A DNA stretch of 64,000 bases from Candidatus Omnitrophota bacterium (GCA_018062515.1 JAGOSC010000005.1:880-64879), one strand, 5' to 3'. Shown: positions 129 through 53,908, numbered from the stretch's first letter. The notes: generated by a model not told the origin, from the sequence alone. Translations and numbers: made by a program.

Positions 129-144
129 AAGGAAAGGTATTACC

Positions 145-699: not shown

Positions 700-702
700 A
701 AT

Positions 703-897: not shown

Positions 898-929
898 TCA
901 TTAACTTTTAATATATATATTGATTAATT

Positions 930-20444: not shown

Positions 20445-20453
20445 GAAATTTAT

Positions 20454-21822: not shown

Positions 21823-21851
21823 TTGACAATGGATCGACTTTAATGTATACT
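21823..21851 (+). promoter_or_regulatory. Sigma70-type promoter for the giant-gene operon
   Basis: TTGACA (21823-21828), 17-nt spacer, TATACT (21846-21851). It lies ~170 nt upstream of the ORF A ATG in the only sizeable intergenic gap before the 30-kb cluster. Confidence 0.6.
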
Positions 21852-29941: not shown

Positions 29942-29957
29942 TAAGGGACGCAGCTAA

Positions 29958-35141: not shown

Positions 35142-36200
35142 GTGATTATTCAGTTTAAAAAATTCCAGTTAAAATTTACCTATAAATTTCTTTGTACGGT
35201 TATCAATATTGCGTTTATCTCGACTTGTGTTCTACCGCCGAGCTATGCTCAGGTTTTATCTTTACCCCAACCTGGAACCATGCTGAATGTAAGCCCGGTT
35301 TATACTCCGCCCATGATCAAAGGACTGACCATTGATCAAGAAAACCCGCTGCATTTTCAATTTATTATTGATACTGGAAATGAACAATATAAAGATAATG
35401 ATCAGCTTCGAGAAGAATCAACACGCTTAATTAAATATTTCCTTGCTTCGTTAACAGTTCCTGAAAATGAAATGTGGGTGAACCTTTCACCCCATGAAAA
35501 AGACCGCATTATTCCCGACGGGTTCGGCCAAACCGAAATGGGCCGTGACCTTTTAGCCCAGGATTATATTTTAAAACAACTCACCGCGTCATTGATTTAT
35601 CCTGAAAAAGAATTAGGGGCTGAGTTTTGGAAAAAAGTGCATGACCGCGCTTGGAAAGAATTTAAAACAAAAGAAATTCCATTGGATACATTTAATAAGG
35701 TTTGGATTGTTCCGGAAAAAGCAGTGATTTATGAACATGAAAGAAGCGCTTATGTTCTGGAAAGTCATTTAAAGGTCATGTTGGAAGAAGATTATCAAGC
35801 ACTTATATCCAATACTTCGTCGACATCCGCGGACAATCAAAAATTAAAAGATGATAATCGGCAACTGACAGCGTCGATCATGAAAGAAATTATTATTCCG
35901 GAAATCGAACGGGAAGTTAATGAAGGTAAAAATTTCACAAATCTACGCCAAATTTACCAGTCGATGATTTTAGCGACGTGGTACAAGATGAACTTAAAAG
36001 AGTCATTACTTGGACAAATTTACGTCGATCAGAATAAACTCATAGGGATTGATCTCGACGATAAGAATGTTAAAGACAAAATTTACGCGCAGTATATAGA
36101 AGCCTTTAAAAAAGGTGTTTATAACTATATCAAAGAAGATTATGATCCTGACCAGCAAAAGACCGTTCCTCGTCAATACATTTCGGGCGGTTTCTCGACG
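35142..36200 (+). other. Leader plus shared N-terminal module, copy C
   Basis: ..INIAFISTCVLPPSYA|QV, LPQPGTMLNV..GLTIDQENPLHFQFIIDTGN..FLASLTVPENEMWVNLSPHE..FGQTEMGRDLLAQDYILKQ..NLRQIYQSMILATWYK..AFKKGVYNYIKEDYD..PRQYISGGF. Confidence 0.85.
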
Positions 36201-39200
36201 GTAGGAAAAGATAACGCAACGCTCGTTGATCTCGTTGGCCGAGAAATCATTAAGTCCAGCGCCGGCTATGTGAGCGCGGATCAATATAAACGTATTTCCA
36301 AAGGACTTAAACCCAGCGGTGATCAATTCAGAACAGATGTTCAATTATTAGAAAACGGAAATAATGGAATTATTAACGCCGATCAATCCATGCTGGTTAA
36401 GATCGACGATGCTTTACAAAAAAATCCTTCTCAAAAAGTTCATACGGTTAAAGGATACACACCGGCTGGAAATCCAATTGAAGATGTTCTTACATATCAG
36501 GATATCAGCGACCAATCCAATCAATTTGCCCATGTATTAAAAAATGCGGGGATTGAAAAAGGCGACCGTGTGGCTGTTATGTCGCCGGTCTCAGGTTTGG
36601 AAATGATCGCGTCTTTGGGAATTTGGAAAGCCGGGGCAGTACGTGTACCGTTTAAAACCCAATGGACGTCGAATGAAATTAAAAAATATTTGACCCAAAC
36701 CACGCCTGAAGCGATGGTTATTCTAAATGTGTATTACGATCAACATTTATTGTCAATTTTAAATGAATTTAAAGATTTAAAAGTTTATATCATTTCTTCC
36801 GGCGAAACTATTTCTTCAACACCTCACGTCATGACTTTTCAAAATAGTTTAATCAATCAAACAACGGATTTCTTAAATATTTCTTCCGATCCGAGGGATT
36901 TAGTCCAATTGGCTATTTCCACCGGAACAACCGGTGAATCAAAAATTGTAAAGCAAACACAAGAAAACTTTTATTTCAGTACGCAAGAGTATAGTGAGTG
37001 GCTTGATGATGCTCCTCAAGGCCCTGTCGTCAGCACTTTACCGCCGGGAACGTACGGAAGCCATAGTATTTTAGGAACTGTTCTGCGAGGACGTCCGTTA
37101 TATATCGTTCCCCGTTTACCCAAAAATCAAACGACCGATGAATATACCCAGACATTATCGGAAACATTGAAGAGAACAAACGCGAAAATTTTATTCGGCG
37201 TTCCAACGCAATTTCAGGCTTTAGCCATGACGGGAGAAAAATTCCCCGGCCTTATTGGTTTAAGCCGAGGAGCCGCGTTAAGAGATGTAAAACAATTATT
37301 TGAGTCGGTGACCGGAGGACGGGTTATCGAAGGTTATGGATTGACAGAAGGAACCAGTTCAGTCACCAATCCGATTAATAGAGATAAGCCGGGTACCGTC
37401 GGAATTCCGTCAAAAGATACGACATTTAAAGTCATTAATCCATCCACGCAAAAAGAACTTCCCATTGGTGAAGAAGGTGAATTAGTGTTAAAAGGCCCGC
37501 AGGTTATGGCCGGATATTGGGAAGATCCTGTGGGCACTAAAGCCGCTTTTACAGAAGATGGATTTTTAAGGACCGGCGATTTGGGCTCCATCGACAAAGA
37601 TGGTTATATAAAAATCACCGGCCGCTTAAAAGACATTATTATTTCCGGCGGTGATAATGTCATTCCGTCGGAGGTAGAAAAAATTATTAAAACCAACGCC
37701 GCTATCGAAGAAGTTACCGTCGTCGGTATAAGTGATCCTGGCCGTTTTCCTGATGATCCGGCATTTGCTGAGCTCGTTGAACATTGGGGGGAAGTTGTTG
37801 TCGCGTTTGTCGTCCCGAAAAAGGGCATGAATACTTTAAATTTAGAGCCATCCATACGAGAATTTGCCAAAAAGAATTTGGCTGCTTATAAAGTCCCCAA
37901 AAAAGTTGTTGTCCTCAATAAACTGCCTCTGCTAGGAGACCTTTTTAAAATTGACCGTCAACAACTCATCCGAGGCGACAATGACAATGCTGTTTTAGTT
38001 ATTCCTTCAGCCATCAAGAATATAGAAAATATAAAAGCCAAATTAGTGTTAAATTTTATGATAAATGAGACTTTAAGAAATGGTTTAATTTCCCAAATTG
38101 ATGGCGAAAAACTTATTCCTTCTGTGGCCATTGATGATGAACAAATAACAGTTGCAAAAAAAGTCAGCGATGAAGAATATGAACTATCCGGAACGAAGGC
38201 GGCTGTTGTCAATGGAGGCCGGGCTTCTTTTTATATTGTATTTGCGCAGCTCAACGGAAAATCAAAAGCGTTCTTAGTCGACAATCCAAAAGGGATAACC
38301 AAAAAATCTGTTCCCACCATGGGCTTGGCTGAAAATAATATTGCTCAAGTTCAGTTTAACCGTGTTAGAGCCAAACTCATCACTGATAATTTAGACGATT
38401 CCGAAATACTTAAAGCTGTACAAAATAAAGAAAATAAAATCATTCGAGCCCTGGCTATTTCCGAAGCCCAAAGGATATATAAAATGGGCGAGAAATATGC
38501 CGCCGAAAGACGCGCCTTTGGACAATCCATCAATAAATTCCCATCTTTAAAACGATTAATGGATGGTATTCAAACGGATGTAGAAAACATCAATGCATCC
38601 CCGAATCCAACCGCCATGCTGGTTGATATAGCCAACCGTGTCCTTCAAATTTTTGCGGCGCGCGGATTTGAAAATAATACGCCGGCTGTAAAAATCTGGC
38701 GTGAGGCACAGGCCCTACATGCCATTGTCACTTATCGGCAATCTTTAACAAAAACAACTCCGGAAAACATATCTCTTGACCCTGAAGAGGTATTTAAAAA
38801 AGGTTCATGGGAAGATTTTGGATTAACACCGGATCAGATTTCTCTAAAATCGAAAATTCGCAATTTTGCGGAAAATATCGTCGCGCCAATGTATGAAGAG
38901 CTTGATCGTGATGGACAGTATCCGCTTTCTATATTGAAGAAAATGGGGGATGCCGGCATTACAAAACCCGGTTATCCAAAAGAAGTTGGCGGTGAAGAAG
39001 CTGACACATTAAGCTGGGCCATCGTCGTCGAGGAACTGGTTAAAGCGGCTCCGGCCTTCGGTATATTTTCCGGTGTTCCGCACACGGCTTCCGTTCCAAT
39101 TCTCAAATCCGGCACTCCCGAACAGAAAGAAATTGTCGCGCAAGTTGTCCGCGGAGAAATTCCTCTATCTTACGGACAGAGCGAACCTCACAGCGGATCG

Positions 39201-42200
39201 GACGTTGGCGGAATTAAGACAACGGCTCATTTAACAAAACGTGATGGTGTTGAAGGTTATGTTATTAACGGTGAAAAAATTTGGATTGGAAGCGCGACCG
39301 TAGCTCCGTGGTTGGTATTATTGGCAAAAACAGGCGAGGCTACTGATCGAGATTTAAATAAATTTGCATTTTTCCTAGTCCCGTTTCGGGATCAAGATGG
39401 TAAATTCCAAAAAGGAATTGAAGTTCATGAAATGGATTTATTGGGAATGCGGGGAATTGGCAACAGCCATATCATTATGAAAGATGTATTTATTCCCAAA
39501 GAAAATATATTAGGTGAAGTTGGTAAAGGATTTAAAACCGCTATGCACGCCATGGATAGCGGGCGTATTTTTGTTTCCTCTCGAGGATTGGGCGTGATAA
39601 GCCACGCGGTGGAGAATGCCAAAGAAGCTTTAAAAGAAGCATTGCGAGAAAATCCGAACTTGCCCCACGCTCAAAATTATATTTCTCAGATTGACTTAAT
39701 GGAAGCCGAACGGCTAAGCGTGCGGGCTATGCTGCAAAAAACATCTGACATGAATGACCGAGGCAAACGCATGACTTATGAAACGGCGATCATGAAATGG
39801 ATTGCCGGAGAAGTTGCTGCCGACATTGCTCAGCGTTCCTACGATCTAATTCACACCATCTCATATAATCCATCACGATGGGCGCATTCCGAACGGGTTT
39901 TGCGGGATTCGCGGCAAATTCGTATCGGCGAAGGGACGCCGCAAATTATGCAACGTATCGCTGGTCTTAAAATCCGACGTCAAATGAAAAAAAAGTTAAC
40001 ACATTTATCAAGTGACATTATTTTACAGGATGCCCTAAAACAAATTCTCGACGAAAAAGAAAATGATTCTGTGCCTACCCGTCTGAATATTCTGTTTAAT
40101 ATAGCTCTGGCCGCATACCTCAAAGCGATTAAAGATGGACAATTTGATATTACGCCCGTCGAGCCATATGGCATTGAATTGGATTTGGCTAATTTAGAAG
40201 CCTTGCGTATGCGTGTGAATGATTTTCAAAAAATGCTCACACAAATGGCGCAATCTGGACAACCTTTTCCTTATGGAAATGCTGTTCAGATATTTATGAA
40301 TCAGAAGTATGTCGAAGCTGAGACGATAGTTCATAATATTTTTACACAATTAAGTTTTAAGACCGAATTGGAAGAAATAAAAGACTATGCTATGATCGCT
40401 TCACTGCAAGTCGAAGAGCTTCGCAAACGTTTTAAAGAAACCGGCGGAGCGATCACACGGGAAGAAGCGCAACAAATAGTAAAAGGTGCAAAGCCAGAAG
40501 AGGTTGCAGTTGTCCTTGAGCAAATAGCATATCAGTCAAGCCTTTATGGGCCTGTCAACGATCCTGCCATTAACAGAGTTGATCCAAAAATTTATGAATC
40601 TTTAATTGGAATTCCTGGTCAAGCGCCGTTTGTCCGCGGATTGTTTCCTTCAGTTACGCAGCGCGCTGCTGGCCGATGGCCGACGGTACGACGTTATGGT
40701 TCGTATGGAACTGCGGAAGAATCAAACGCCAATCTTAAAAAACAATTAGAAGCGGGTGTTACTGGATTTAGTATTGCTTTTGATTTACCGACTCAAAATG
40801 GTTATGACACAGGTCATCCTTTAGCTGTTGGAGAAGCTGGCCGCGTCGGTATCGCCATTAACACATTGCAAGATATGGAAGATCTTTTTGATGGACTGCC
40901 TTTAGAGAAAATTAGTACATCAATGACCATTAATCCAACCGCGCCAATTCTTTTTGCCATGTATGTGGCTGCAGCGCGTAAGAAAGGCGTGCCAGACAAA
41001 TTAATTGCCGGAAGCGTTCAAAATGATAGCTTGAAAGAATACACGGCGCGTAATACGTATGTTCTACCTTATAAAGGTATGATGCGCATGACCACAGATG
41101 TATTTCGTTGGACGAAAGACAATTTGCCGCGATTTAATACGATTACGATTTCTGGTTATCATATCCGTGAATCCAACGTCGATGCGGTTAAAGAAATTGC
41201 TTTTACGATAACGAACGCGCTTCAATATGTCGCCGAATTAAAACGCAAAGGTCTAAGCCGTGATGAAATCGCCGGATCATTGGCCACGATGGCTTGGTTT
41301 ATCAATTTGAAAATGAATACGTTTGAAGAAGTCGGAAAACTTCGCGCACTCCGACGGGTATGGTCGAAAATTGTCCGTGATGGATTAGGCATTAAACCTG
41401 AAAATGTGACTGATCCTAAGCTCAAAGATGTGTATCAAAAAGCAACGAACGCCCGGGTTGCAACCTGGTCGGGTGGAAGCGAAGTCCGGTTACCGTACGC
41501 AACGACACTGAATTTTGCCCGTAACGCTATCCGTGCTTTTAACGCACCGTTAAGCGGCGTTCAAAGTTGGGACGGAGCAGCCTTTGATGAATCCATCGGA
41601 ATACCGACGGATTTTGCTCAAGAAGAAGCTATGCTTCGGCTTTTCGCGGCACAGTCGGAAACAGGCCTTATGGAATTAGATGATCCATTCGGCGGATCAT
41701 ATTTCTTGGAAGCTGAGACAAATCGAATTGAGCAAGGAATTTGGAATGAATTATCTGAATTATCACAAAAAGATTCATTCTTGGATGTTCTCCAATTTAT
41801 GGTCGATGAACGAACGCGCTTAACTGATCAGGACCGAATAGATTTAGAAGGGGGACAACGAAAAATCGTCGGGTACAACATTTCCACCGACGGGGCAGAT
41901 GCTTATCCTCAACCCAAAGCTCGGCCGATGAACACCGAAAATTTCGATGTAAAACAGGGCAAAAGATTAAAGAAAGTTTTGGAAACTCGCGATAATGACG
42001 CTGTACAATCCGCCTTGGATGAACTTGAAAAAGCATTAAAAAATGAAACTGAAAATGTCCTGCCATATATTTTTAAAGCCGTCGAAGTTTACGCTACGGT
42101 TGGAGAGATTAGTGACCGCATGCGACGCATATATGGCGCCTCCGACGGAAAGACTCCATGGAATGCGCAACCTGTTTGGAAAGATTTGAAAGACAAAGAA

Positions 42201-45200
42201 TGGACTCCTCCAATACAAGAGAAGCCAGAAATTTTTGATCAAGATATACGGAACTTTATCGAAACACAAAAAAATCTTATTGGGAATAGCTATCAAGAAA
42301 TTTATGACCGAGGGATTGCCCGCGGATATTTCTTGGCTGGCGACATGCCATATGTTAGACATTTGCATGTTGAAGAGCGCCCCGGGGAGTATCCATATAC
42401 ACGCGGAATTATTAAGCAGCGACCAGAAAAATTAAATAACATTAGTGGATATTTATTAAGAGAAGCTGGGATGGATGGAATGCAGGAATTGGCTTTGAGT
42501 TTATTTGCTGCTAAAAAGGAAATTGAAAAAGGAAATACTCCCAGCGAACGTGCAGACATTGCCAATCAAATCCGTATTGTGCTTTCTTCCAGCGATAATT
42601 TTATGGAAGAAACCGCTCGAATATTTTTAGCACGTAGAATGTGGGCTGAAATGCTCAAAGAAATGGGAATCACCGATGAAAATGCATTGCAATTGATCGT
42701 CGGTGTTAAAACCGATGCAACCACATACACGGAAGATAAACATTGGCTGAATATTAGCCGCGGCACACGTCAAGCATATCAAGCTTATTTAGCCGGTGTT
42801 GATCCGCAAGATATTATCATTACCCGTTTTGATGCTCCTTATGGCCATACAGATCAAACTCGATTAGCCGAACAAATTGCCAAAGATACTCTCGATGTAT
42901 TCCGTTATGAATTACCCAAAAAAGTTCAAAATCCTTTAAGCGGAATGTTTGCTTTAGAAGCTAAGATCGAAACAATGGAAGGTGAATTAAAAGCTGAATT
43001 AACAAAACTTGAAGATTTGTCATCTGATAAAAAATCAATATCTATTTCCGCAGAATCTGAAATGAAAGCCCTTATACCTGTTACCAATGTTACTGGATCC
43101 ACGGGTGTTCCAACTTGGTTAACTCCGTCATTAGCGAATTATCTGATCACTTCACTTTTACATTCGCAGGCTGTTCAGCTAGCCAAAGTTACCGCCGGAT
43201 TGACTCCAAAAGTAGGCGAGAATATTAAAACCAGTTCGACGAAATATTTTCCGCCAATGAATACCGAGGCCATGGGTATGAAACTTCTACCGCCATCAGA
43301 ACAAGTCACCATTGATGCCTTAGCCTCTGATTCAGAGGATTTAAGAATTGCAATTGCGGACGCATGGTTCAATCAAGCTGCAAATTTATATACAAAACTT
43401 TTAGGCGCGCTTCATCTTAATAACAGTAATCGTCATATTACAAAACTCCTCAGAGGTTTAGCAGCGGCTAATTTAAGTGTGAATGCTGAACAATTTTCAA
43501 AAATTGCTGAAAAATGGTCAATTATTTCTGAAGGCGATCAATTCACTATTCAGACGGATAATGGATCACAACTGAATATTATCCGTGATACTGATCACCA
43601 AGGGAAAATGGGCATTGAATTGGCGGGAAATGTTTCAGAAATAATGCGGTATGTTTCACAGTATACACTAAAAAATAAAATGACTAAAAAAGATAAATTA
43701 CGTATTCTCGTCGCTAAACCAGGACTTGATGGTCATGATGTCGGTGCACGAACAATCGCCAATGGCTTTCGTGACGCCGGCTTTGATGTAATTTATACGG
43801 GATTGCAAAACACCCCGGAACAAATTGTGGAAACAGCTCGCCAAGAAAATATTGATGTCATTGGGTTAAGCATTCTTTCTAACGCTCATAATTCGATTGG
43901 ACCAAAAGTCGCTAGCCTTTTAAATAAGAATGGAATGGATGATGTTTTTGTCGCCATGGGCGGAATGATTCCTGACGATGATCAGCGTAATTTATTTCGA
44001 AAAAGCGCGGTCAACGCAATCTATATTGCCGGTACAACCATGCAAAAGATTGTTGACGATATCAACCATTGGAATGAATGGCGGGGGAAATCAGATAAAA
44101 TAAAAATCACAAATGATCATCAGTTTACGGCAACATTATTCGATGGAAGTTCAGTCGAAGTTGTTGTCATCAATAAGGAAATTCCAACAGCTAAACCGGT
44201 CACGGACGTAGAAGAAACGGAAATTCCTCAAACTGCTTTAGCCGTGCCAACAAAACTAGGCCCATTGCATCGATCAAATATTCCCGTCGTTGAAGGCGTT
44301 TGGAGCGATGATCCAGAAATTCGAAACCGTGCTCTACAACACTATGCTTTAGCTGGAGACATATTGTTAGAACAGGTCATAAAAACGAGTCCAGTACTGG
44401 GACGATTTATTATTCCGGTTTCGAATGCCGTTTCTCCTCATATTGAACACGCCACTGTTGCCTCAGCTGGAATTGCTTTAACACCCGAACATTTTGAACA
44501 AGCCTGGGAGGCTAATGGAAACCCTCATCGTTCCAATGTACCGGAAGACGTCCGTGCAGAAGAATTTGAAGTTATAGTAACAATGCCCGATGGAAGTAAG
44601 CGAATTTTGGATATTCTTCGTGATAAAAAGGATGACTTTGAAGCTGGCGATATTGTCCGAAGAAAGATAGACGTCTCACACACGTTGGTTGAAGCATGGA
44701 ATAAAAAAGCTAAAACCAACCCTAAAGCCAAAGATCAAGAAGCAGAATGGTTAAATATGACCATAAAACAAATTCTTAATCCGCCGTTTGCTTCAAATAT
44801 TTTTCCAGCTAATGCGATTGTGATAAAGGTTCAAAACAGAAATAGTGAATTGGACCGAGGTATTATTGAACTTGATCAAGAATTAAATATTTACGTGAAG
44901 GTTCTCGACGTCACCCCATTTAATCAACAAACTGTCGACGGAAAATCATTCATTAAAGCGGATGTCATCGTTAAAGATAAAGAAGAAAACATTCTCATCG
45001 ACAGTATCGTCACAGTCATGAAACCGCTGACCATCGCTCGTCATATTAATGAATACAGTGAAGCGGTGATTCAGCAAGTTGAAGTTTGGACCGACGACAT
45101 TCAAGCGGCTCACAAAGCGATTTCCGCAGCGGCTAAAGATAAAACAAATGGTATTAATGTCGTACTGCCTGTCCGTGACGGAGCGAATGGAACAAAGGTT

Positions 45201-45560
45201 TTCTTTACGATGGTGACAATCGAAGGCGGCGTCAAAGTTCTCGTTGAGTTAATTCAAAATCCAAAAGCCGCGGTTGATAACGCTTCGCTCAGCCAATACG
45301 GCGGTATCGACCTTAATCCAGCGCATTTGGATTTGCAAATCAAGCGTGATGGACGAGGAATTCCGCTTCCGGTTAATCAACAGCCAATCATCAATATGCA
45401 TATCGACGGTTTTTATCCGATTATTATTGAAATGACGCCAGTGAATTTGCCGATGTTGCTCGGTTTCGCGGATGAAAATATGCCTGCGGATGAAACAGAT
45501 GATTATTCTCAATCAGAATTAAACGCCAGAGAACCTGAAGATTTAAGTTATTTAAATTAA
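35142..45560 (+). CDS. Giant fusion protein C (3472 aa): leader + shared N module + acyl-CoA synthetase + partial ACAD + ACAD + B12-dependent acyl-CoA mutase barrel + truncated second barrel + B12-binding domain + unassigned region + shared C module
   Basis: The GTG start directly abuts the ORF B TAA, with GAGGAA upstream. 10.4-kb open frame. Motifs are in the sub-features. Confidence 0.88.
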   Translation: MIIQFKKFQLKFTYKFLCTVINIAFISTCVLPPSYAQVLSLPQPGTMLNVSPVYTPPMIKGLTIDQENPLHFQFIIDTGNEQYKDNDQLREESTRLIKYFLASLTVPENEMWVNLSPHEKDRIIPDGFGQTEMGRDLLAQDYILKQLTASLIYPEKELGAEFWKKVHDRAWKEFKTKEIPLDTFNKVWIVPEKAVIYEHERSAYVLESHLKVMLEEDYQALISNTSSTSADNQKLKDDNRQLTASIMKEIIIPEIEREVNEGKNFTNLRQIYQSMILATWYKMNLKESLLGQIYVDQNKLIGIDLDDKNVKDKIYAQYIEAFKKGVYNYIKEDYDPDQQKTVPRQYISGGFSTVGKDNATLVDLVGREIIKSSAGYVSADQYKRISKGLKPSGDQFRTDVQLLENGNNGIINADQSMLVKIDDALQKNPSQKVHTVKGYTPAGNPIEDVLTYQDISDQSNQFAHVLKNAGIEKGDRVAVMSPVSGLEMIASLGIWKAGAVRVPFKTQWTSNEIKKYLTQTTPEAMVILNVYYDQHLLSILNEFKDLKVYIISSGETISSTPHVMTFQNSLINQTTDFLNISSDPRDLVQLAISTGTTGESKIVKQTQENFYFSTQEYSEWLDDAPQGPVVSTLPPGTYGSHSILGTVLRGRPLYIVPRLPKNQTTDEYTQTLSETLKRTNAKILFGVPTQFQALAMTGEKFPGLIGLSRGAALRDVKQLFESVTGGRVIEGYGLTEGTSSVTNPINRDKPGTVGIPSKDTTFKVINPSTQKELPIGEEGELVLKGPQVMAGYWEDPVGTKAAFTEDGFLRTGDLGSIDKDGYIKITGRLKDIIISGGDNVIPSEVEKIIKTNAAIEEVTVVGISDPGRFPDDPAFAELVEHWGEVVVAFVVPKKGMNTLNLEPSIREFAKKNLAAYKVPKKVVVLNKLPLLGDLFKIDRQQLIRGDNDNAVLVIPSAIKNIENIKAKLVLNFMINETLRNGLISQIDGEKLIPSVAIDDEQITVAKKVSDEEYELSGTKAAVVNGGRASFYIVFAQLNGKSKAFLVDNPKGITKKSVPTMGLAENNIAQVQFNRVRAKLITDNLDDSEILKAVQNKENKIIRALAISEAQRIYKMGEKYAAERRAFGQSINKFPSLKRLMDGIQTDVENINASPNPTAMLVDIANRVLQIFAARGFENNTPAVKIWREAQALHAIVTYRQSLTKTTPENISLDPEEVFKKGSWEDFGLTPDQISLKSKIRNFAENIVAPMYEELDRDGQYPLSILKKMGDAGITKPGYPKEVGGEEADTLSWAIVVEELVKAAPAFGIFSGVPHTASVPILKSGTPEQKEIVAQVVRGEIPLSYGQSEPHSGSDVGGIKTTAHLTKRDGVEGYVINGEKIWIGSATVAPWLVLLAKTGEATDRDLNKFAFFLVPFRDQDGKFQKGIEVHEMDLLGMRGIGNSHIIMKDVFIPKENILGEVGKGFKTAMHAMDSGRIFVSSRGLGVISHAVENAKEALKEALRENPNLPHAQNYISQIDLMEAERLSVRAMLQKTSDMNDRGKRMTYETAIMKWIAGEVAADIAQRSYDLIHTISYNPSRWAHSERVLRDSRQIRIGEGTPQIMQRIAGLKIRRQMKKKLTHLSSDIILQDALKQILDEKENDSVPTRLNILFNIALAAYLKAIKDGQFDITPVEPYGIELDLANLEALRMRVNDFQKMLTQMAQSGQPFPYGNAVQIFMNQKYVEAETIVHNIFTQLSFKTELEEIKDYAMIASLQVEELRKRFKETGGAITREEAQQIVKGAKPEEVAVVLEQIAYQSSLYGPVNDPAINRVDPKIYESLIGIPGQAPFVRGLFPSVTQRAAGRWPTVRRYGSYGTAEESNANLKKQLEAGVTGFSIAFDLPTQNGYDTGHPLAVGEAGRVGIAINTLQDMEDLFDGLPLEKISTSMTINPTAPILFAMYVAAARKKGVPDKLIAGSVQNDSLKEYTARNTYVLPYKGMMRMTTDVFRWTKDNLPRFNTITISGYHIRESNVDAVKEIAFTITNALQYVAELKRKGLSRDEIAGSLATMAWFINLKMNTFEEVGKLRALRRVWSKIVRDGLGIKPENVTDPKLKDVYQKATNARVATWSGGSEVRLPYATTLNFARNAIRAFNAPLSGVQSWDGAAFDESIGIPTDFAQEEAMLRLFAAQSETGLMELDDPFGGSYFLEAETNRIEQGIWNELSELSQKDSFLDVLQFMVDERTRLTDQDRIDLEGGQRKIVGYNISTDGADAYPQPKARPMNTENFDVKQGKRLKKVLETRDNDAVQSALDELEKALKNETENVLPYIFKAVEVYATVGEISDRMRRIYGASDGKTPWNAQPVWKDLKDKEWTPPIQEKPEIFDQDIRNFIETQKNLIGNSYQEIYDRGIARGYFLAGDMPYVRHLHVEERPGEYPYTRGIIKQRPEKLNNISGYLLREAGMDGMQELALSLFAAKKEIEKGNTPSERADIANQIRIVLSSSDNFMEETARIFLARRMWAEMLKEMGITDENALQLIVGVKTDATTYTEDKHWLNISRGTRQAYQAYLAGVDPQDIIITRFDAPYGHTDQTRLAEQIAKDTLDVFRYELPKKVQNPLSGMFALEAKIETMEGELKAELTKLEDLSSDKKSISISAESEMKALIPVTNVTGSTGVPTWLTPSLANYLITSLLHSQAVQLAKVTAGLTPKVGENIKTSSTKYFPPMNTEAMGMKLLPPSEQVTIDALASDSEDLRIAIADAWFNQAANLYTKLLGALHLNNSNRHITKLLRGLAAANLSVNAEQFSKIAEKWSIISEGDQFTIQTDNGSQLNIIRDTDHQGKMGIELAGNVSEIMRYVSQYTLKNKMTKKDKLRILVAKPGLDGHDVGARTIANGFRDAGFDVIYTGLQNTPEQIVETARQENIDVIGLSILSNAHNSIGPKVASLLNKNGMDDVFVAMGGMIPDDDQRNLFRKSAVNAIYIAGTTMQKIVDDINHWNEWRGKSDKIKITNDHQFTATLFDGSSVEVVVINKEIPTAKPVTDVEETEIPQTALAVPTKLGPLHRSNIPVVEGVWSDDPEIRNRALQHYALAGDILLEQVIKTSPVLGRFIIPVSNAVSPHIEHATVASAGIALTPEHFEQAWEANGNPHRSNVPEDVRAEEFEVIVTMPDGSKRILDILRDKKDDFEAGDIVRRKIDVSHTLVEAWNKKAKTNPKAKDQEAEWLNMTIKQILNPPFASNIFPANAIVIKVQNRNSELDRGIIELDQELNIYVKVLDVTPFNQQTVDGKSFIKADVIVKDKEENILIDSIVTVMKPLTIARHINEYSEAVIQQVEVWTDDIQAAHKAISAAAKDKTNGINVVLPVRDGANGTKVFFTMVTIEGGVKVLVELIQNPKAAVDNASLSQYGGIDLNPAHLDLQIKRDGRGIPLPVNQQPIINMHIDGFYPIIIEMTPVNLPMLLGFADENMPADETDDYSQSELNAREPEDLSYLN
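36440..37980 (+). other. AMP-dependent acyl-CoA synthetase/ligase domain
   Basis: TYQDISDQSNQFAHVLKNAGIEKGDRVAV, ISTGTTGESKIV (a divergent SGTTG.PKG), EGYGLTEG, LRTGDLGSIDKDGYIKITGRLKDIIISGGDNVIPSEVE, AAYKVPKKVVVLNKLP. Confidence 0.75.
38000..38700 (+). other. Partial/degenerate acyl-CoA dehydrogenase-like unit (middle and C-terminal parts only)
   Basis: YELSGTKAAVVNGGRASFYIVFAQLNG..AFLVD, PTMGLAENNIAQVQFNRV, AERRAFGQSINKFPSL. No clear N-terminal helical domain. Confidence 0.45.
38800..39980 (+). other. Acyl-CoA dehydrogenase domain (complete)
   Basis: FAENIVAPMYEELDRDGQYP, MGDAGI, SYGQSEPHSGSDVGG, INGEKIWIGSA, DLLGMRGIGNSHIIMKDVFIP, IGEGTPQIMQRIAG. Confidence 0.75.
40590..42140 (+). other. 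Adenosylcobalamin-dependent acyl-CoA mutase catalytic (TIM-barrel) domain, methylmalonyl/ethylmalonyl-CoA mutase type
   Basis: PGQAPFVRG, WPTVRRYGSYGTAEESNANLKKQLEAGVTGFSIAFDLPTQNGYDTGHPLAVGEAGRVGIAI, ISTSMTIN, LKEYTARNTYVLP (Arg retained where I recall isobutyryl-CoA mutases having Gln), ISGYHIRESN, YATVGEISDRMRRIYG. Confidence 0.8.
42300..42990 (+). other. Truncated second mutase-barrel-like segment (beta-subunit-like remnant)
   Basis: PGEYPYTRGI jumps directly to LREAGMDGMQELALSLFAAKKEI...NFMEETARIFLARRMWAEMLKEMG...TDATTYTEDKHWLNISRGTRQAYQAYLAGV. It is colinear with the start and the last third of a mutase barrel; the middle is missing. Confidence 0.5.
43690..44060 (+). other. Cobalamin-binding (B12) Rossmann-like domain
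   Basis: LRILVAKPGLDGHDVGARTIANGFRDAGFDVIYTG contains the D-x-H-x-x-G motif (43728-43745). Then IDVIGLSILS and FVAMGGMIP. Confidence 0.8.
45295..45475 (+). other. Shared C-terminal module, copy C
   Basis: YGGIDLNPAHLDLQIKRDGRGIPLPVNQQPIINMHIDGFYPIIIEMTPVNLPMLLGFADE. A 26-nt run (45339-45364) is identical to 29699-29724 in copy A. Confidence 0.85.
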
Positions 45561-45566
45561 TAAACC

Positions 45567-46600
45567 ATGAAAAAGAAAATTTTCCTTATGAAAAAGTTTG
45601 TGTCTATATTAATTCTTTGCGCATTTACAATGAACACCATTGTTCCGCCGAGTTTGGCGCAGAGCATATCGTCAACGATCCTACCGCCGGTAGGTTCAAT
45701 GCTAACCATGACACCATCGTTTGTTCCGATACAAATCAAGGGTCTAACCATCGATCCCGAAAATCCTTTGCATTTTGAATTTATCATCGATACCGGCGAT
45801 TCAAAAATTGTAAACGATGAAGAATTGCGCGCCGAAACAACAAAACTGGTTAAATATTTTCTTACATCGCTGACCGTTCCGGAAGAAGATATGTGGGTCA
45901 ATCTTTCTCCTTATGAAGGAAATCGTATTGTTACCGACGGATTCGGACAAACGCAAATGGGTCAGGATCTCTTAGCGCAAGATTATATTCTAAAACAAAT
46001 CACCGCATCATTAATGTTCCCTGAAAAAGAGTTGGGCAAAAAGTTCTGGGATAAAATTTATCAGAGAGCAGAACAAGAATACGGAACTAAAGATATTCCA
46101 ACGAATACATTTAATAAAGTATGGATCATTCCGGAAAAAGCCACGGTTTATGAGCATGACGGCAGTGTTTTTGTTATCGAAAGCCGTTTAAAGGTTTTAT
46201 TGGAAGAAGATTATTTTGCCCAAAGAAAATCTGAAGGAGCCTCCGTCGATCCAAATAAATCTGTGTATACCGACATCGTTCGAGAAATTTTAATTCCGGA
46301 GATTGAAAAAGAAGTCAATGAAGGACAGCATTTTGCCAAACTGCGTCAAATTTATAATGCGATGATCTTAGCGACTTGGTATAAAACCAATCTGCAAAAA
46401 TCCGTCTTAGGACAAATTTATGTTGATCAAAATAAGTTGGAAGGCATTAACGGCGAGAATAAAAACGCTAAGTCAGATATTTATAATCAATATCTCAAGG
46501 CTTTTAAGGCCGGCGTTTATAACTATATTAAAGAAGACTATGATTCGACAACTCGGTCAACGATTCCCCGACAGTACTTCTCCGGTGGATTTGCCGCTAC
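45567..46600 (+). other. Leader plus shared N-terminal module, copy D
   Basis: MKKKIFLMKKFVSILILCAFTMNTIVPPSLA|QS, LPPVGSMLTM..GLTIDPENPLHFEFIIDTGD..FLTSLTVPEEDMWVNLSPYE..FGQTQMGQDLLAQDYILKQ..KLRQIYNAMILATWYK..AFKAGVYNYIKEDYD..PRQYFSGGF. Confidence 0.85.
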
Positions 46601-49600
46601 TTCAGATAAAGCGGCATTATCCACCGTAGTTAAGGAATCAAACCTGGGTCAAAACAACACGCCGTTATCCGACGAGGACTCAGCACTCATCGCAGATGCA
46701 TTATCCGCGCGAGGCAAACAGTTTAATACAGATATCCTCCTTAGAGAAGCCGTCTCGGGGATAACTTCCGGCGATGAAGCTATTCTTAGTTCTTTTACTG
46801 AAGATGAAATTGTGTCACGAATTCTAAATACTCCATATGATCCGATAAAAATTGGTCAGCAAATGCGGGCATGGTACGCTGATGGTAACCTCGACGCTGA
46901 TATCTTAAAAGCAACCTTGACCAATTTAAGCCGCCGTGTTGTGTACGTAAAAAGTACAGCTGATTTAAAAGACTATGAAAAAATGAAGCCTTTTTTGATC
47001 AAGACCTGGGCGCTGCTTAAAGAAGCGAATGACTCTCAGTATACCGAAAGCATTTCGATCATTGAGAGAACCATGGCCTACTCCTTATATATTTCGGATC
47101 CAAAATTATTTTATGCCGAACCGATTGAATCCATGGTCGCTGATTTAAGAAAAATTAAAGACAGCACCGCGGATGAACGTATTAAATTTGATGAAGCTTG
47201 GACACTGATTTCCAAACGCTACAGCCAAAAAAATCCGCGAGATATTTTTTATATCGCCCGGGCGATGAAACGTCCCAAGGCCTCAGATATTGTTAAAAGT
47301 TCTTTATTTAAAGATTTCATGGAATTGCGGGATGCCAAAGATCCGCTCGACCCTCAAAAAAATGAACGTTACACGCCGACGGAAAATGAGATTCAAGAGG
47401 CCATGTCGATCGGGTTCAAAGATAAATTAGAAGCCCGTGAATATGTCATTGCCAAACGAGACGCCCAATATGATGACGCATCCGTACTTACGGGAATAGG
47501 GACTTTTGTGGATCCAAAAACCGGAAAAGAGACAAAAGTTATGGTTGTTGCTTTACAAAATGGAAGTGATATTAAGGAATTATTTGAAAGAAATGCCGGT
47601 TTAAACCGCCCGTGGGGATATTGGAAAGCGATCCGCGCTTTTCGTTTGGCGGAATCTACAGAGTATAGAATTCCAATTGTCACTTTTGTTGACACGAAGG
47701 GGGCGGATAACACATTACCGTCGGAAATCGCCAATCAATCGGGCGTGGTTTCCTACGCCATACAAGTTCAACAAGAGCTGACGGTTCCGTTTATTTCCAT
47801 CATCAATATCGACGGCGTAAGTGCTGGAGGCATGGTTGTCACTCAAGGCGGCGCATTATATATGATGGATTATTCGAATCGATATTTAGCTGCTCCGGCA
47901 GGGTCTTTAGATATTATCGGCAAAGCAAAAACGACTATTCCCGTCGCTGAGCAACGCGGCGTGAAAGATACAATCGGAATGCAAATCATTGAAAAAGAAG
48001 TGCAAAGTGTGTGGGGAGATGCTTTTCATGCGGACGCGAAAAGATCATTGGAAGAATTAAAAACCATTTCCGGAATTATCCCTGAAGCGCTCGGTGGTGC
48101 GCATCGATTCCCTGAACTTTCTTATGAAATGATAGGCGATGTCATTCACAATTACTTAAAGGAAAATGCCAACAAAACAGTTGCGCAGCTTAAAGCCCAG
48201 CGTCATGACTTTTTCCGTCGATTAGGTGGAATTCCTGAAAAAGATTTTAGAATCGTCGACGATCAAGATGTCCCAACCTTGACCAAATCCATCATCACAC
48301 CGGATGAATTTGCACAGTTGGTGGAAACTATTCTTGACAATAAACAAAATACCGAACGTATGCTCCATGCGTATCGCCAGTACACTTTTACACTGAAATC
48401 AGCGAAACAAAAAAAAGAGGTTGTCGCTGTATGGATGAAAGTTTTTAGAGCTAACCGCAGCTGGTTTGATAATCGCTGGATGGTCAAAGTTTTAAATGCT
48501 TCGTTAACAGAATTTGAAAAGAAGGGAACGCAAAATGCTAAAACTCTTAAAGAGGCGATGATCAAGAGTTTCTTTCCGGAACCGCGCAGTATTGCTGATC
48601 GTCTCGAACAATTTGTCGACCGCAAAAAAGATGGAAGTTTGGAGATTATTGAAGAATTAAATGCGAATTTAGCCGAGACACCCATCATCGATTTTGATGA
48701 AACCATTCATGAAGCCTATCCCTTTTTGAAGATTGATGGCCAGGATATTGCGGCCAAGTTTGACCAATTCCGCAAATTAACCGGCTCATTAACCGGCGTT
48801 TGGACCGGTTATGTTAAAATCGGCGGAGTAAAGACGATGCTGGTTTTAAAAGATCCACGCTGGTTGAACGCCAGCGCAACAACGGCCGTCATCGGCGAGA
48901 AAGTGACCCGCGCCTTGGAAGATGTGCGTCAAAAATTTGATAAAACCAAAGAAAAAATTCCCGTGATCATGTTGACGACGGCGAGCGGTGCTCTTCAGCA
49001 AGAAGGCCAGCGCGCTATGGACCCGTTAAATAAAAAACTCGCTGGATTGGTTGAATTGAAGGAACGAAATATTCCCGTCGTGATTTTAGGTGCCTACGAA
49101 GTTTTCGGTGGTGATAGCGCCTCCGACGCGACATATCAAGATGCTGATCTTTTACTATTAGAAAAAGGGACAAGAAAAGGATTCACCGGCCACCCGACGC
49201 TGACCGGAGAAAATGATCGACGTAAGAAAAAAGGTGTTAAAGATACTTCGCAAAATGAGGTTGTGCCATTAACCGTTTTGCCTTTTCCATATCAGACTGA
49301 TCAGTTCTTAGACCGGCTTGGATTTATCGATGGAATTGTGACTGTCGAGCAAGAAACGCCTTTATTACAAGCTTTCTTACAAGACGTGACTAATAAAGAA
49401 CTGACTGTTAAATCCGAAGAAATTAAAGAACTTTTAAAAACCTTTAAAGACAAACGTGAAATGCGAGTAAAGCTTGTACGCGCCTTGGAACGAAAACCAT
49501 TTAAGACGACGTTTCAAAATGGAAATGAGGCTGAAGTTTTTAATCTGCGAAATAAGGCAAGACTATTGATGAATCAGCCAGGCATTGGCTGGCGTTATGA

Positions 49601-53840: not shown

Positions 53841-53869
53841 TTGACGATGTGTACAATATCAATTATATT
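53841..53869 (+). promoter_or_regulatory. Candidate sigma70 promoter for the serpin gene
   Basis: TTGACG (53841-53846), 17-nt spacer, TATATT (53864-53869). This argues against the GTG 53849 start given in the ORF track. Confidence 0.4.
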
Positions 53870-53908
53870 ATTTACACATATCCACGGTCTAAACGCTTAA
53901 AAAAATTC

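What the first reader, a model, noticed from the sequence alone, without database searches (positions are those of the whole stretch)
36440..45260. ORF C strings together acyl-CoA synthetase, ACADs and a complete B12 mutase system on one 3472-aa chain
The order is AMP-ligase, partial ACAD, full ACAD, ~200 aa unknown, mutase barrel, truncated barrel, ~230 aa unknown, B12 domain, then ~340 aa unassigned. The end of that last segment (GTKVFFTMVTIEGGVKVLVELIQNP) faintly resembles the C-terminus of VOC-type methylmalonyl-CoA epimerases. That is a tentative observation only. The ligase P-loop is divergent (TGESKI instead of TG.PKG). I know of no natural fusion of an activating enzyme, dehydrogenases and a radical mutase.
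Basis: partly seen in the sequence, partly recalled or inferred. Interest (0 to 1): 0.7.

Follow-up and report, generated by a model that had tools for sequence, protein, structure and literature searches.

The report
Exported cysteine-free multi-enzyme giant protein
ORF C is a real 3,472-residue gene of an uncultured Omnitrophota bacterium that fuses a CoA ligase, a dehydrogenase, a vitamin-B12 mutase and an epimerase-like domain, and it is odd because this cofactor-hungry enzyme chain carries a secretion signal and has no cysteine after that signal.

Summary
Window 35142..45560 (+) is one uninterrupted 3,472-aa ORF. Its domains run in the stated order: MatB-like CoA ligase, ACAD remnant, intact ACAD, full mutase barrel, half barrel, B12 domain. 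A VOC/epimerase-like domain near the end is supported by profile search only; it is split by a ~135-aa insert and lacks the usual His ligands.

ORF C is one of four adjacent giant genes (22019..52088). Each has a Sec-type signal peptide (PPxxA|Q), a ~365-aa domain of no known fold, enzyme cargo, and a ~57-aa C-terminal motif. This bracket occurs at 580 or more loci, nearly all titled Omnitrophota. Together the four cargos resemble an ethylmalonyl-CoA/3-hydroxypropionate-type set: Ccr-like reductase, malyl-CoA-lyase-like, MaoC, ACADs, mutase, carboxyltransferase. The same enzymes recur, reshuffled, in giants of two other contigs, one with MeaB fused.

The mature giants contain zero cysteine in about 9,850 residues (about 88 expected), a hallmark of exported proteins.

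Best reading: active, covalently tethered enzymes that are exported. Where they then find ATP, CoA and B12 is unresolved.

Novelty: a new variant of the multi-enzyme long proteins already reported from Omnitrophota.

The parts
21823..21851 (+). Sigma-70-like promoter (TTGACA-17-TATACT) upstream of the four-gene giant operon.
   Evidence: 11 of 12 matches, the only such site in the 240-nt gap before ORF A. This is a consensus match only. The RBS GAGAGG lies before the ATG at 22019.
22019..29941 (+). ORF A, 2,640 aa. Signal peptide plus N-domain; HpcH/malyl-CoA-lyase-like domain; double MaoC hydratase; Ccr-type enoyl-CoA carboxylase/reductase with an insert; C-motif.
   Evidence: TIGR01751 341.7 bits against a cut-off of 378.55; best PDB hit Ccr 4gi2, 244 bits; then the Pcs reductase domain 6eqo; the best HpcH hits are malyl-CoA lyases, but weak.
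29958..35141 (+). ORF B, 1,727 aa. Signal peptide plus N-domain; two VLCAD-like acyl-CoA dehydrogenases; C-motif.
   Evidence: The first ACAD keeps the catalytic Glu (IFEGANE). The second reads IGGSN at that position (read from the sequence).
35142..35249 (+). ORF C signal peptide, aa 1-36: K-rich n-region, 16-residue hydrophobic core, PPSYA|Q cleavage site. It contains both of the protein's only cysteines.
   Evidence: The GAGGAA RBS lies 8 nt before the GTG at 35142. The PPxxA|Q motif is conserved across the family.
35250..36341 (+). N-domain of about 365 aa (motifs WVNLSPxE, TEMGRDLLAQDY, NTFNKVWI, LRQIY, YFSGG), apparently confined to Omnitrophota.
36414..37976 (+). ANL-family acyl-CoA ligase, MatB-like (dicarboxylate-CoA ligase type).
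   Evidence: malonyl-CoA synthase NF005702, 229.6 bits, below its cut-off; best PDB hit malonyl-CoA synthetase 4fuq/4gxq, about 170 bits. The motifs STGTTGESK, YGLTE, TGD, GRxKD and the C-terminal Lys in LFKIDR are all present.
38148..38717 (+). ACAD remnant: middle domain plus part of the C-terminal domain. No N domain and no catalytic motif.
   Evidence: PF02770 at 1.2e-7 and PF00441 at 2.4e-5.
38826..39959 (+). Complete acyl-CoA dehydrogenase (N, M and C domains) with the catalytic Glu (RIGEGTPQI).
   Evidence: Best NCBIfam hit is acryloyl-CoA reductase AcrC at 199.6 bits, below its cut-off.
39960..40580 (+). Unassigned linker of about 200 aa between the ACAD and the mutase.
   Evidence: No Pfam hit at E<=10. 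No relatives in JGI metagenomes.
40581..42146 (+). Full acyl-CoA mutase substrate barrel of the MCM/ECM type.
   Evidence: TIGR00641 425.7 bits, above its cut-off of 303.8. HcmA 4r3u 303 bits, MCM 284 bits; the equivalents of Tyr89, Gln197, Arg207 and Tyr243-His244 are all conserved.
42384..42980 (+). Half pseudo-barrel. It starts with PYTRG and then jumps to the second half of the barrel. His244 is replaced by Leu (ISGYLLREAG).
   Evidence: The element is conserved collinearly in L001 and P0246.
43239..43676 (+). Helical hairpin plus a degenerate half VOC-like module, directly before the B12 domain.
   Evidence: by eye against L001 P1 and P0242, where the same module is clearer. This is an inference.
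43692..44084 (+). B12-binding domain of the small-subunit type, with DGHDVG (DxHxxG) and SILS motifs.
   Evidence: HcmB 4r3u_C 2.8e-31, 2yxb 2.4e-30. TIGR00640 144.2 bits, above its cut-off of 57.45.
44445..44627 (+). VOC/epimerase-like domain, first piece.
44628..45029 (+). Insert of about 135 aa that splits the VOC-like domain. Unassigned.
   Evidence: No Pfam hit.
45030..45266 (+). VOC/epimerase-like domain, second piece. It reads IQQVE where epimerases usually have HH.
   Evidence: Profile hits: 6bu2 at 2.3e-9 and MCE 6wf6 at 2.1e-7.
45297..45467 (+). C-terminal family motif YGGIDLN...LQIKRDGRGIPLP...GFYPIIIEMTPVNLPMLLGF, followed by a 30-aa acidic tail.
   Evidence: It always lies at the ORF C-terminus in 79 loci. 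No Pfam hit. It is disordered in an AF2 model of the short family member P0045.
45567..52088 (+). ORF D, 2,173 aa. Signal peptide plus N-domain; AccA- and AccD-type carboxyltransferase; HD-like region; cNMP-binding domain; C-motif.

Best explanation
ORF C is a genuine gene, the third of a four-gene operon (22019..52088) in an Omnitrophota genome.

Shared frame. All four products have the same build:
- a cleavable Sec-type signal peptide ending PPxxA|Q;
- a ~365-aa N-domain of no known fold;
- a variable string of enzyme domains;
- a ~57-aa C-terminal motif.

This frame defines a large paralogous family that appears confined to Omnitrophota.

Cargo of ORF C:
- a MatB-like dicarboxylate-CoA ligase;
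- an ACAD remnant and an intact ACAD;
- a B12 mutase built from a full MCM/ECM-type barrel, an inactive half barrel (functionally comparable to the inactive MutA subunit of heterodimeric methylmalonyl-CoA mutase), and a small-subunit-type B12 domain;
- a VOC/epimerase-like domain.

Proposed pathway. The neighbours add a Ccr-like carboxylating reductase, a malyl-CoA-lyase-like domain and MaoC hydratase (ORF A), two ACADs (ORF B) and an acetyl-CoA-carboxylase-type carboxyltransferase (ORF D). Together the operon encodes a covalently tethered set of enzymes for interconverting C3-C5 (di)carboxyl-CoA esters, in the manner of the ethylmalonyl-CoA or 3-hydroxypropionate routes: activation, reductive carboxylation, epimerisation, carbon-skeleton rearrangement, dehydrogenation, hydration and lyase cleavage.

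What is shown: the architecture, the family, the intact catalytic residues, the recurrence of the enzyme set, and the exclusion of cysteine.

What is inferred:
1. The enzymes are active, and physical tethering aids hand-over of intermediates.
2. The proteins are exported through Sec and processed at A|Q. The signal peptide and the complete lack of cysteine in the mature chains both point that way.
3. The N-domain and C-motif are handling, sorting or anchoring modules.

What is open: where the exported enzymes meet ATP, CoA, NADPH, FAD and adenosylcobalamin. A host or prey cell is my favoured guess, given the reported host-dependent lifestyle of the phylum.
For: Architecture and start site.

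Four siblings with the same N and C modules, and no other ORF in the window carrying them.

The family:
- At least 1,444 protein hits, mostly named Omnitrophota or Omnitrophica, with diverse cargo.
- At least 580 loci in GTDB genomes, several per genome.
- In 79 loci the N-domain is always at the N-terminus of the ORF and the C-motif always at the C-terminus. 63 ORFs carry both, they range from 784 to more than 3,700 aa, and they often sit in tandem.

Catalytic integrity:
- The mutase equivalents of Tyr89, Gln197, Arg207 and Tyr243-His244 are conserved in ORF C and in seven other signal-peptide-bearing giant mutases that are only 25-35% identical.
- The DxHxxG motif of the B12 domain is intact.
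- The TIGR00641 and TIGR00640 cut-offs are passed.
- The ligase motifs are present, and the ACAD Glu is present.
- The Ccr CO2-site residues Asn, Glu and His appear conserved, read by eye from the alignment.

Recurrence of the enzyme set in other fusion orders:
- L001: Ccr + mutase + B12 + ACAD + HpcH in one chain; ligase x2 + ECH + carboxyltransferase in the next.
- L007: two MeaB + mutase + B12 + carboxyltransferase in one bracketed giant; ligase + MaoC + HpcH + ECH in the next.
- P0246, P0249 and P0261.

Export:
- Conserved signal peptide with an AxA|Q site.
- No hydrophobic segment inside the cargo.
- Zero Cys in about 9,850 mature residues, against 0.89% in the window's 32 other genes (P about 5e-39).
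- Family-wide, 0.055% Cys against 1.1% background.
- Two other signal-peptide proteins in the window are also Cys-free.
- Cysteine exclusion is a documented trait of exported proteins in bacteria that lack oxidative folding (PMC2823432).
Against: - Sec export delivers unfolded chains. FAD, adenosylcobalamin, ATP, CoA and NADPH are not expected in a periplasm or outside the cell, so exported activity needs an unproven destination.
- No MeaB, adenosyltransferase, ETF, biotin carboxylase/BCCP or thiolase is in the window.
- Every enzyme domain scores below the NCBIfam equivalog cut-offs: MCM 520 against 876, Ccr 341.7 against 378.55, and the ligases and ACADs far below.
- Several elements are degenerate: the ACAD remnant, the half barrel, the VOC-like domain without the usual His ligands, and the second ACAD of ORF B without Glu.
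- Signal-peptide cleavage and topology were judged by eye and by hydropathy only. No dedicated predictor was available.
- The pathway assignment rests on domain families, not on substrate-level evidence. The HpcH hits to malyl-CoA lyases are weak (E about 1e-6).
- ORF C's exact architecture is a singleton from one MAG.
Confidence: 0.6

Rival explanations
1. The hydrophobic N-terminus is an uncleaved membrane anchor. [quoted passage not shown]
For: All cargo domains need cytoplasmic cofactors. bioRxiv 10.64898/2026.06.07.730766 assigns 46% of Omnitrophota long proteins to a TM-only, cytoplasmic-domain class. Ordinary housekeeping genes flank the operon.
Against: The K-rich n-region before the hydrophobic core predicts an N-in, C-out orientation. 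The conserved PPxxA|Q matches a signal-peptidase I site. Near-total cysteine exclusion is unexplained for cytoplasmic enzymes, and is not shared by the neighbouring cytoplasmic proteins.
Confidence: 0.2
2. The enzyme-like domains are catalytically dead relics reused as structural or binding modules of a secreted or surface protein. No pathway is encoded.
For: ACAD remnant, half barrel with His replaced by Leu, VOC-like domain lacking His ligands and split by an insert. All scores fall below the equivalog cut-offs. No chaperone or adenosyltransferase is nearby.
Against: Active-site and substrate-binding residues of the main barrel, the B12 domain, the ligase, the ACAD and Ccr are kept, and are kept across giants that are only 25-35% identical. 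The same functionally coherent enzyme set recurs in three arrangements, and MeaB GTPases are fused to the mutase in L007. That makes sense only for a working B12 enzyme.
Confidence: 0.1
3. The giants are polyprotein precursors that are cut into separate conventional enzymes after synthesis or export.
For: West-Roberts et al. (bioRxiv 10.1101/2023.11.21.568195) propose autoproteolysis of Omnitrophota giant proteins through C39 and S8 peptidase domains. The linkers between domains are long and unassigned.
Against: Pfam finds no peptidase domain in ORFs A-D. No repeated cleavage-like motif was seen between domains. This rival is compatible with the best explanation rather than opposed to it.
Confidence: 0.07
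4. ORF C is an assembly or binning artefact that joins separate genes.
For: It comes from a single MAG contig. No second copy of this architecture was found, and the gene was not on record in the contig index.
Against: GC content is uniform at 0.40-0.43 across the ORF. There are no stops in 10.4 kb. The family N and C modules sit exactly at its two ends, as in 63 other complete ORFs. The mutase composite is collinear with an independent ENA contig over 1,251 aa. Analogous fusions occur on further contigs.
Confidence: 0.03

Closest known systems
Multi-enzyme 'metabolic cluster' long proteins of Omnitrophota (Nielsen & Lui 2026, bioRxiv 10.64898/2026.06.07.730766; West-Roberts et al. 2023, bioRxiv 10.1101/2023.11.21.568195)
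   Same: Same phylum. Many unrelated enzyme Pfams tile one polypeptide. An N-terminal signal peptide places metabolic content outside the cytoplasm, a puzzle those authors state openly.
   Different: Those studies treat proteins of 10 kAA and above, with sugar and regulatory modules. Searches of both texts find no mention of mutase, acyl-CoA, AMP-binding or cysteine, and the sections I read describe no N-domain/C-motif bracket. ORF C is 3.5 kAA with only two hydrophobic segments.
IcmF (fused isobutyryl-CoA mutase with MeaB GTPase; PDB 4xc6)
   Same: A natural single-chain fusion of a B12 domain, an acyl-CoA mutase barrel and accessory function. The L007 relative also fuses MeaB.
   Different: ORF C has no GTPase. 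Its barrel carries MCM-type Tyr and Arg rather than the ICM Phe and Gln. The domain order is barrel then B12, with a half barrel in between. IcmF scores only 113-159 bits.
Heterodimeric methylmalonyl-CoA mutase MutA/MutB (PDB 1req) and split HcmA/HcmB (PDB 4r3u)
   Same: The active barrel plus an inactive barrel paralogue recalls MutB and MutA. The barrel and the B12 domain are individually closest to the split large and small subunits HcmA and HcmB.
   Different: Here everything is on one chain. The inactive copy is only half a barrel. A VOC-like half-module sits before the B12 domain. The substrate residues are MCM-like, not HCM-like (Ile/Asp).
Propionyl-CoA synthase of the 3-hydroxypropionate bi-cycle (PDB 6eqo)
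   Same: A natural fusion of CoA ligase, hydratase and Ccr-family reductase that channels CoA-ester intermediates. ORF A's reductase aligns with its reductase domain over the full length, including the insert.
   Different: Pcs is cytoplasmic, 1,850 aa and trifunctional. It has no mutase or ACAD, no signal peptide and no bracket modules.
Ethylmalonyl-CoA pathway enzymes (Ccr, epimerase, Ecm, Mcd, Mch, Mcl1) of Rhodobacter and Methylobacterium
   Same: The operon contains a family-level counterpart of each of these steps.
   Different: In the known pathway these are separate soluble cytoplasmic proteins. Here substrate specificities are unproven, thiolase and acetoacetyl-CoA reductase are absent, and a ligase and a carboxyltransferase are added.
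C-terminal sorting signals and carrier domains (PEP-CTERM/exosortase, GlyGly-CTERM, T9SS CTD)
   Same: A short conserved element fixed at the extreme C-terminus of many otherwise unrelated signal-peptide proteins of one lineage. This is an analogy from my own knowledge.
   Different: There is no TM-helix-plus-basic-tail layout. The motif is followed by an acidic tail of variable length. No cognate sortase or secretion genes were identified. There is no sequence similarity (no Pfam hit).

Membership tests
Coenzyme-B12-dependent acyl-CoA mutases (MCM-like) | Substrate TIM barrel recognised by the family models | tested here: met
   PF01642 E 1.7e-147. TIGR00641 425.7 bits, above its cut-off of 303.8.
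Coenzyme-B12-dependent acyl-CoA mutases (MCM-like) | B12-binding Rossmann domain with the DxHxxG (base-off/His-on), SxL and GG motifs | tested here: met
   GLDGHDVG, GLSILS and MGGMIP are present. TIGR00640 144.2 bits, above its cut-off of 57.45.
Coenzyme-B12-dependent acyl-CoA mutases (MCM-like) | MCM/ECM-type residues that bind the substrate carboxylate and catalyse (P. shermanii Tyr89, Gln197, Arg207, Tyr243, His244) | tested here: met
   RRYGSY, VQND, TARNTY and SGYH are present. The HCM (Ile/Asp) and ICM (Phe/Gln) signatures are excluded.
Coenzyme-B12-dependent acyl-CoA mutases (MCM-like) | Equivalog-level match to methylmalonyl-CoA mutase (NF006944, cut-off 876 bits) | tested here: not met
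   520.3 bits for the whole ORF and 385.1 bits for the barrel alone. It is a deep branch, about 33-37% identical to any plasmid-borne MCM.
Coenzyme-B12-dependent acyl-CoA mutases (MCM-like) | Placement in the MCM, ECM, ICM or HCM clade by phylogeny | not tested
   No named ECM reference sequences were available in the tools. Only signature residues were compared.
Coenzyme-B12-dependent acyl-CoA mutases (MCM-like) | Associated MeaB-type G-protein chaperone and adenosyltransferase | tested here: not met
   Neither is present in the 64-kb window. The rest of the genome was not available. A related giant, L007, fuses two MeaB domains to its mutase.
ANL superfamily acyl-CoA ligases | Core motifs: A3 P-loop, A5 YGxTE, A7 TGD, A8 GRxKD, A10 Lys | tested here: met
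   STGTTGESK, YGLTE, RTGD, GRLKD and LFKIDR are present. PF00501 E 2.3e-54. Best PDB hit is malonyl-CoA synthetase, which also has Ser-Lys in the P-loop.
Acyl-CoA dehydrogenases | Three-domain N/M/C fold and the C-terminal catalytic Glu (MCAD-type YEGT position) | tested here: met
   All three Pfam domains lie within aa 1229-1606. The motif IGEGT is present. FAD binding and the electron acceptor were not tested.
VOC-type methylmalonyl-CoA epimerase | Sequence or profile similarity to VOC/MCE | tested here: inconclusive
   Pfam and direct PDB searches were negative. A five-sequence profile that includes a spliced ORF C segment hits 6bu2 at 2.3e-9, MCE 6wf6 at 2.1e-7 and 1jc4 at 1e-3. No structure model of this region was made.
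VOC-type methylmalonyl-CoA epimerase | Canonical metal ligands (P. shermanii His12, Gln65, His91, Glu141; recalled from my own knowledge) in a contiguous domain of about 140 aa | tested here: not met
   SAGIAL and IQQVE stand at the two His positions. The terminal Glu (LVELIQ) is kept. The domain is split by a ~135-aa insert.
Ethylmalonyl-CoA pathway | Crotonyl-CoA carboxylase/reductase, the pathway's signature enzyme | tested here: inconclusive
   ORF A scores 341.7 bits on TIGR01751 against a cut-off of 378.55, with the match split by an insert. Best PDB hit is Ccr 4gi2. The CO2-site residues look conserved by eye.
Ethylmalonyl-CoA pathway | Full enzyme complement, including thiolase, acetoacetyl-CoA reductase and demonstrated substrate specificities | not testable with these tools
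   Only one 64-kb window was available. Specificities need enzymology.
Omnitrophota multi-enzyme long proteins (Nielsen & Lui 2026) | Length of 10 kAA or more, many distinct Pfams on one chain, signal peptide and/or TM segments | tested here: not met
   The Pfam tiling and the signal peptide are met, but the length is 3,472 aa. It works like that class at a smaller scale.
Omnitrophota signal-peptide/N-domain ... C-motif bracket family (defined here) | Signal peptide ending PPxxA|Q, the ~365-aa N-domain at the N-terminus, the GGID...GFxPVII...LLG motif at the C-terminus, and near-absence of Cys | tested here: met

The most novel reading that the evidence does not exclude
Omnitrophota, which are tiny host-dependent or predatory bacteria, export whole cofactor-dependent metabolic modules as cysteine-free giant proteins. 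Here the module is an ethylmalonyl-CoA-like route that includes a B12 radical enzyme. A lineage-specific N-domain and C-motif system delivers or anchors these proteins, and they work inside or at the surface of a host or prey cell. In effect they are metabolic effectors, or an outsourced metabolism, that draw on the host's ATP, CoA and cobalamin.
Probability: 0.2. Interest if true: 0.92.

Novelty: new variant of a known kind. Interest (0 to 1): 0.78.

Why it matters
If the enzymes are active, this is the first B12-dependent carbon-skeleton mutase found fused to its upstream and downstream pathway partners. It would serve as a natural template for channelled CoA-ester pathways.

The frame around the cargo matters more. 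Hundreds of Omnitrophota genes place typical cytoplasmic enzymes between a secretion signal with an unknown N-domain and a fixed C-terminal motif, and they purge cysteine from them. This gives a concrete, testable handle on an open question raised in recent Omnitrophota work: why does metabolic enzyme content appear on the extracytoplasmic side in these host-dependent nanobacteria?

The bracket and the cysteine signature together also offer a simple sequence rule for cataloguing the whole class.

Tried and rejected
1. Whole-cargo homologue search. The 8,000-candidate limit was filled by long NRPS proteins. It showed only that the sole full-length match is the protein itself, so it is a weak test of uniqueness.
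2. The look-up of encoding contigs for the deposited protein found nothing on record.
3. Direct tests of the tail against Pfam at E<=10 and against the PDB found nothing. Only the transitive, profile-based route worked.
5. An AF2 model of a short family member (P0045, 549 aa, 22-sequence alignment) was made to see whether the C-motif docks on the N-domain. pLDDT was 53 and the motif was disordered, so there is no support for intramolecular docking.
6. A metagenome scan with the ACAD-to-mutase linker found no relatives.
7. A plasmid tblastn meant to supply named ECM references returned only generic 'methylmalonyl-CoA mutase' entries at 28-37% identity. A clade phylogeny was abandoned in favour of signature residues.
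8. Considered and rejected: an NRPS/PKS-like assembly line. There are no carrier, condensation or ketosynthase domains in ORFs A-D.
9. Considered and rejected: a bacterial microcompartment or encapsulin cargo. No shell genes are in the window, and a Sec signal is not how those systems load cargo.
10. Considered and rejected: the giants as concatenated bracket units. No ORF in 79 loci has an internal C-motif-to-N-domain junction.


Full report
**Observation**

Window 35142..45560 (+) is a single open reading frame of 3,472 codons. It is deposited as MBP9853542.1, 'MAG: AMP-binding protein [Candidatus Omnitrophica bacterium]', on a 64,894-bp contig.

- AMP-binding (aa 449-793) and AMP-binding_C (aa 880-930)
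- an ACAD remnant (aa ~1003-1192)
- a complete ACAD (aa 1229-1606)
- an MM_CoA_mutase barrel (aa 1823-2332, E 1.7e-147)
- a second match covering only profile positions 202-381 (aa ~2433-2613)
- a B12-binding domain (aa 2854-2964)

GC content is even across the ORF. A GAGGAA ribosome-binding site precedes the GTG start codon.

**State of the enzyme domains**

*Ligase.* It is closest to malonyl-CoA synthetase MatB (about 170 bits). MatB also has Ser-Lys in the P-loop, so the 'divergent' TGESKI is a subfamily trait. The other ANL motifs are present.

*ACAD.* The full ACAD keeps the catalytic Glu, in IGEGT.

*Mutase barrel.* It passes the TIGR00641 cut-off. It is about equally distant from HcmA (303 bits) and MCM (284 bits). 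It carries the MCM-type Tyr, Gln, Arg and Tyr-His, not the residues diagnostic of HCM or ICM.

*B12 domain.* It is of the small-subunit type (HcmB, 2yxb), has an intact DxHxxG motif and passes TIGR00640.

*Second barrel.* It begins with PYTRG, skips the first half of the fold and has Leu in place of the catalytic His. It is not random decay. The whole block of barrel, half barrel, linker and B12 domain is collinear at 33% identity over 1,251 aa with a giant protein on an unrelated ENA contig, and with P0246.

*Tail.* Direct searches of the tail were negative. Its two pieces (aa 3102-3162 and 3297-3375), separated by a ~135-aa insert, align to a small family that JGI calls methylmalonyl/ethylmalonyl-CoA epimerase. 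A profile of that family finds solved VOC proteins and methylmalonyl-CoA epimerases at 2e-9 to 1e-3. The usual His ligands are replaced. A degenerate half-copy of the same module sits just before the B12 domain, as it does in L001.

ORF C is one of four consecutive giant genes:
- A, 22019..29941
- B, 29958..35141
- C, 35142..45560
- D, 45567..52088

They are separated by 0-16 nt, and a single promoter-like site lies upstream.

The N-domain family is large:
- It has at least 1,444 protein hits with very varied fused domains, including NUDIX, GNAT, ankyrin, phosphoglucomutase and ribosomal S9. Among those hits, the ones that carry a source name are mostly labelled Omnitrophota.
- It occurs at 580 or more loci in GTDB genomes. 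The 79 fetched are titled Omnitrophota, apart from some labelled 'uncultured Planctomycetales' and two labelled only 'bacterium'. There are several copies per genome.

In those 79 fetched loci the N-domain is always at the N-terminus of the ORF and the C-motif always at the C-terminus. 63 ORFs have both, with cargo of roughly 300 to more than 3,300 aa, often in tandem arrays. Most 'N-only' ORFs are followed by a 'C-only' fragment, which suggests frameshift splits.

**Pathway content**

- ORF A carries an HpcH domain whose best, though weak, solved relatives are malyl-CoA lyases. It also carries MaoC hydratase domains and a Ccr-family reductase: TIGR01751 at 341.7 bits against a cut-off of 378.55, best PDB hit Ccr 4gi2, then the reductase domain of propionyl-CoA synthase.
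- ORF B has two ACADs.
- ORF D has AccA- and AccD-type carboxyltransferase and a cNMP-binding domain.

With ORF C's ligase, ACAD, mutase and epimerase-like domain, this gives a family-level match to the steps of the ethylmalonyl-CoA pathway and partly of the 3-hydroxypropionate bi-cycle.

The grouping is not accidental, because the same enzymes recur elsewhere in different fusion orders:
- L001: one chain with Ccr, mutase, B12, ACAD and HpcH/MaoC; the next with two ligases, ECH and carboxyltransferase. This contig has a different shared C-terminal module and no N-domain.
- L007: a bracketed giant with two MeaB GTPases, mutase, B12 and carboxyltransferase; the next with ligase, acyltransferase, MaoC, HpcH and ECH.
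- L017: a bracketed giant with two ACADs.
- P0246, P0249 and P0261.

The mutase active-site residues are conserved across all these giants, although they are only 25-35% identical. A fused MeaB argues for real B12 chemistry.

**The cysteine signal**

ORFs A-D contain 0, 1, 2 and 1 cysteines, and every one lies inside the signal peptide. The roughly 9,850 mature residues contain none. The 32 other genes of the window have 89 Cys in 9,992 aa, so about 88 would be expected (P about 5e-39).

Across 111 N-domain ORF segments from other genomes the frequency is 0.055%, against 1.1% in neighbouring ORFs, and 69 segments have none. The L001 giants also have 0, 3 and 0. Two other signal-peptide proteins in the window are Cys-free as well.

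Cysteine exclusion is a known trait of exported proteins in bacteria without oxidative folding machinery (PMC2823432). Three observations together make export the most economical reading:
- the conserved signal-peptidase-type site;
- the absence of hydrophobic segments within the cargo;
- the cysteine exclusion.

**The resulting paradox**

ATP-, CoA-, NADPH-, FAD- and adenosylcobalamin-dependent enzymes appear to be sent out of the cytoplasm unfolded. The same puzzle is stated for much longer Omnitrophota proteins in bioRxiv 10.64898/2026.06.07.730766. Text searches of that paper and of West-Roberts et al. find no mention of mutase, acyl-CoA, AMP-binding or cysteine.

- I favour active, tethered enzymes that are exported, with an unresolved site of action (0.6).
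- Within that, delivery to a host or prey cell is the most interesting possibility (about 0.2).
- Rivals are a cytoplasm-facing anchored metabolon (0.2), dead domains reused structurally (0.1), a processed polyprotein (0.07) and an assembly artefact (0.03).

**Limits**

- Only one 64-kb window of one MAG was available.
- No dedicated signal-peptide or topology predictor was available.
- No named ethylmalonyl-CoA mutase references were available for a phylogeny.
- The second AF2 model, of a short family member, was of low confidence and showed no docking of the C-motif.
- The functions of the N-domain and the C-motif remain unknown.

Noticed in passing
window 22019..52088 (ORFs A-D); loci L002-L080; L001: Near-total absence of cysteine from the mature giant proteins. 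There are none in about 9,850 aa here, and the family-wide frequency is 0.055% against a 1.1% background. The few cysteines present sit in the signal peptides.
   Followed up: yes
window 35235..35252 and the equivalent sites in ORFs A, B and D: The signal peptides end in a conserved PPxxA|Q, so the mature N-terminus would be Gln. This recalls the 'Q-rule' (pyroglutamate N-termini) described for signal-peptidase I substrates in Bacteroidetes (PMC5837995, seen).
   Followed up: no
L007:1-9804 and L007:9878-20935: A bracketed giant fuses an AprA-like methyltransferase, two MeaB GTPase domains, a mutase, a B12 domain and an ACC-type carboxyltransferase. Its neighbour fuses a phosphopantetheinyl transferase, a ligase, an acyltransferase, MaoC, HpcH and ECH.
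   Followed up: partly
L001 (ENA ERZ21828377 contig-100_13), three giants at 2-9967, 9992-21730 and 21812-30748: A lineage without the N-domain or C-motif has short signal peptides. Its first two giants share a different C-terminal module of about 190 aa (...IILS(V/L)L(K/A)E... SF(S/M)SLALG...). They carry the same CoA-pathway enzymes. A third giant has NUDIX and proline dehydrogenase.
   Followed up: partly
window 34200..34300 (ORF B, second ACAD): The second ACAD of ORF B reads IGGSN where the catalytic Glu of the YEGT-type motif is expected. It may be inactive, or it may use a base elsewhere, as IVD and LCAD do.
   Followed up: no
P0242, P0244, P0245: The same helical-hairpin plus VOC-like module that flanks the B12 domain is fused to the C-terminus of TerC-family membrane proteins in other metagenomes.
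   Followed up: no
window 100..2086: An ORF6N/Rha-like gene and a tyrosine integrase abut tRNA-Pro(GGG) at 2013-2086, in the lowest-GC stretch of the window (0.33). This is probably the edge of an integrated mobile element.
   Followed up: partly
window 59502..61166: A 554-aa protein has an HTTM domain and a vitamin-K-dependent gamma-carboxylase lumenal domain. This is unusual in bacteria.
   Followed up: no
window 53849..55177: A full-length serpin (PF00079, E 2.8e-127) with a signal-peptide-like N-terminus.
   Followed up: no
loci L012, L021, L026, L035, L043, L050: Several bracket-family genes appear as an N-only ORF immediately followed, or overlapped, by a C-only ORF in another frame. These could be frameshifts, sequencing errors or programmed events. 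The cause was not examined.
   Followed up: no
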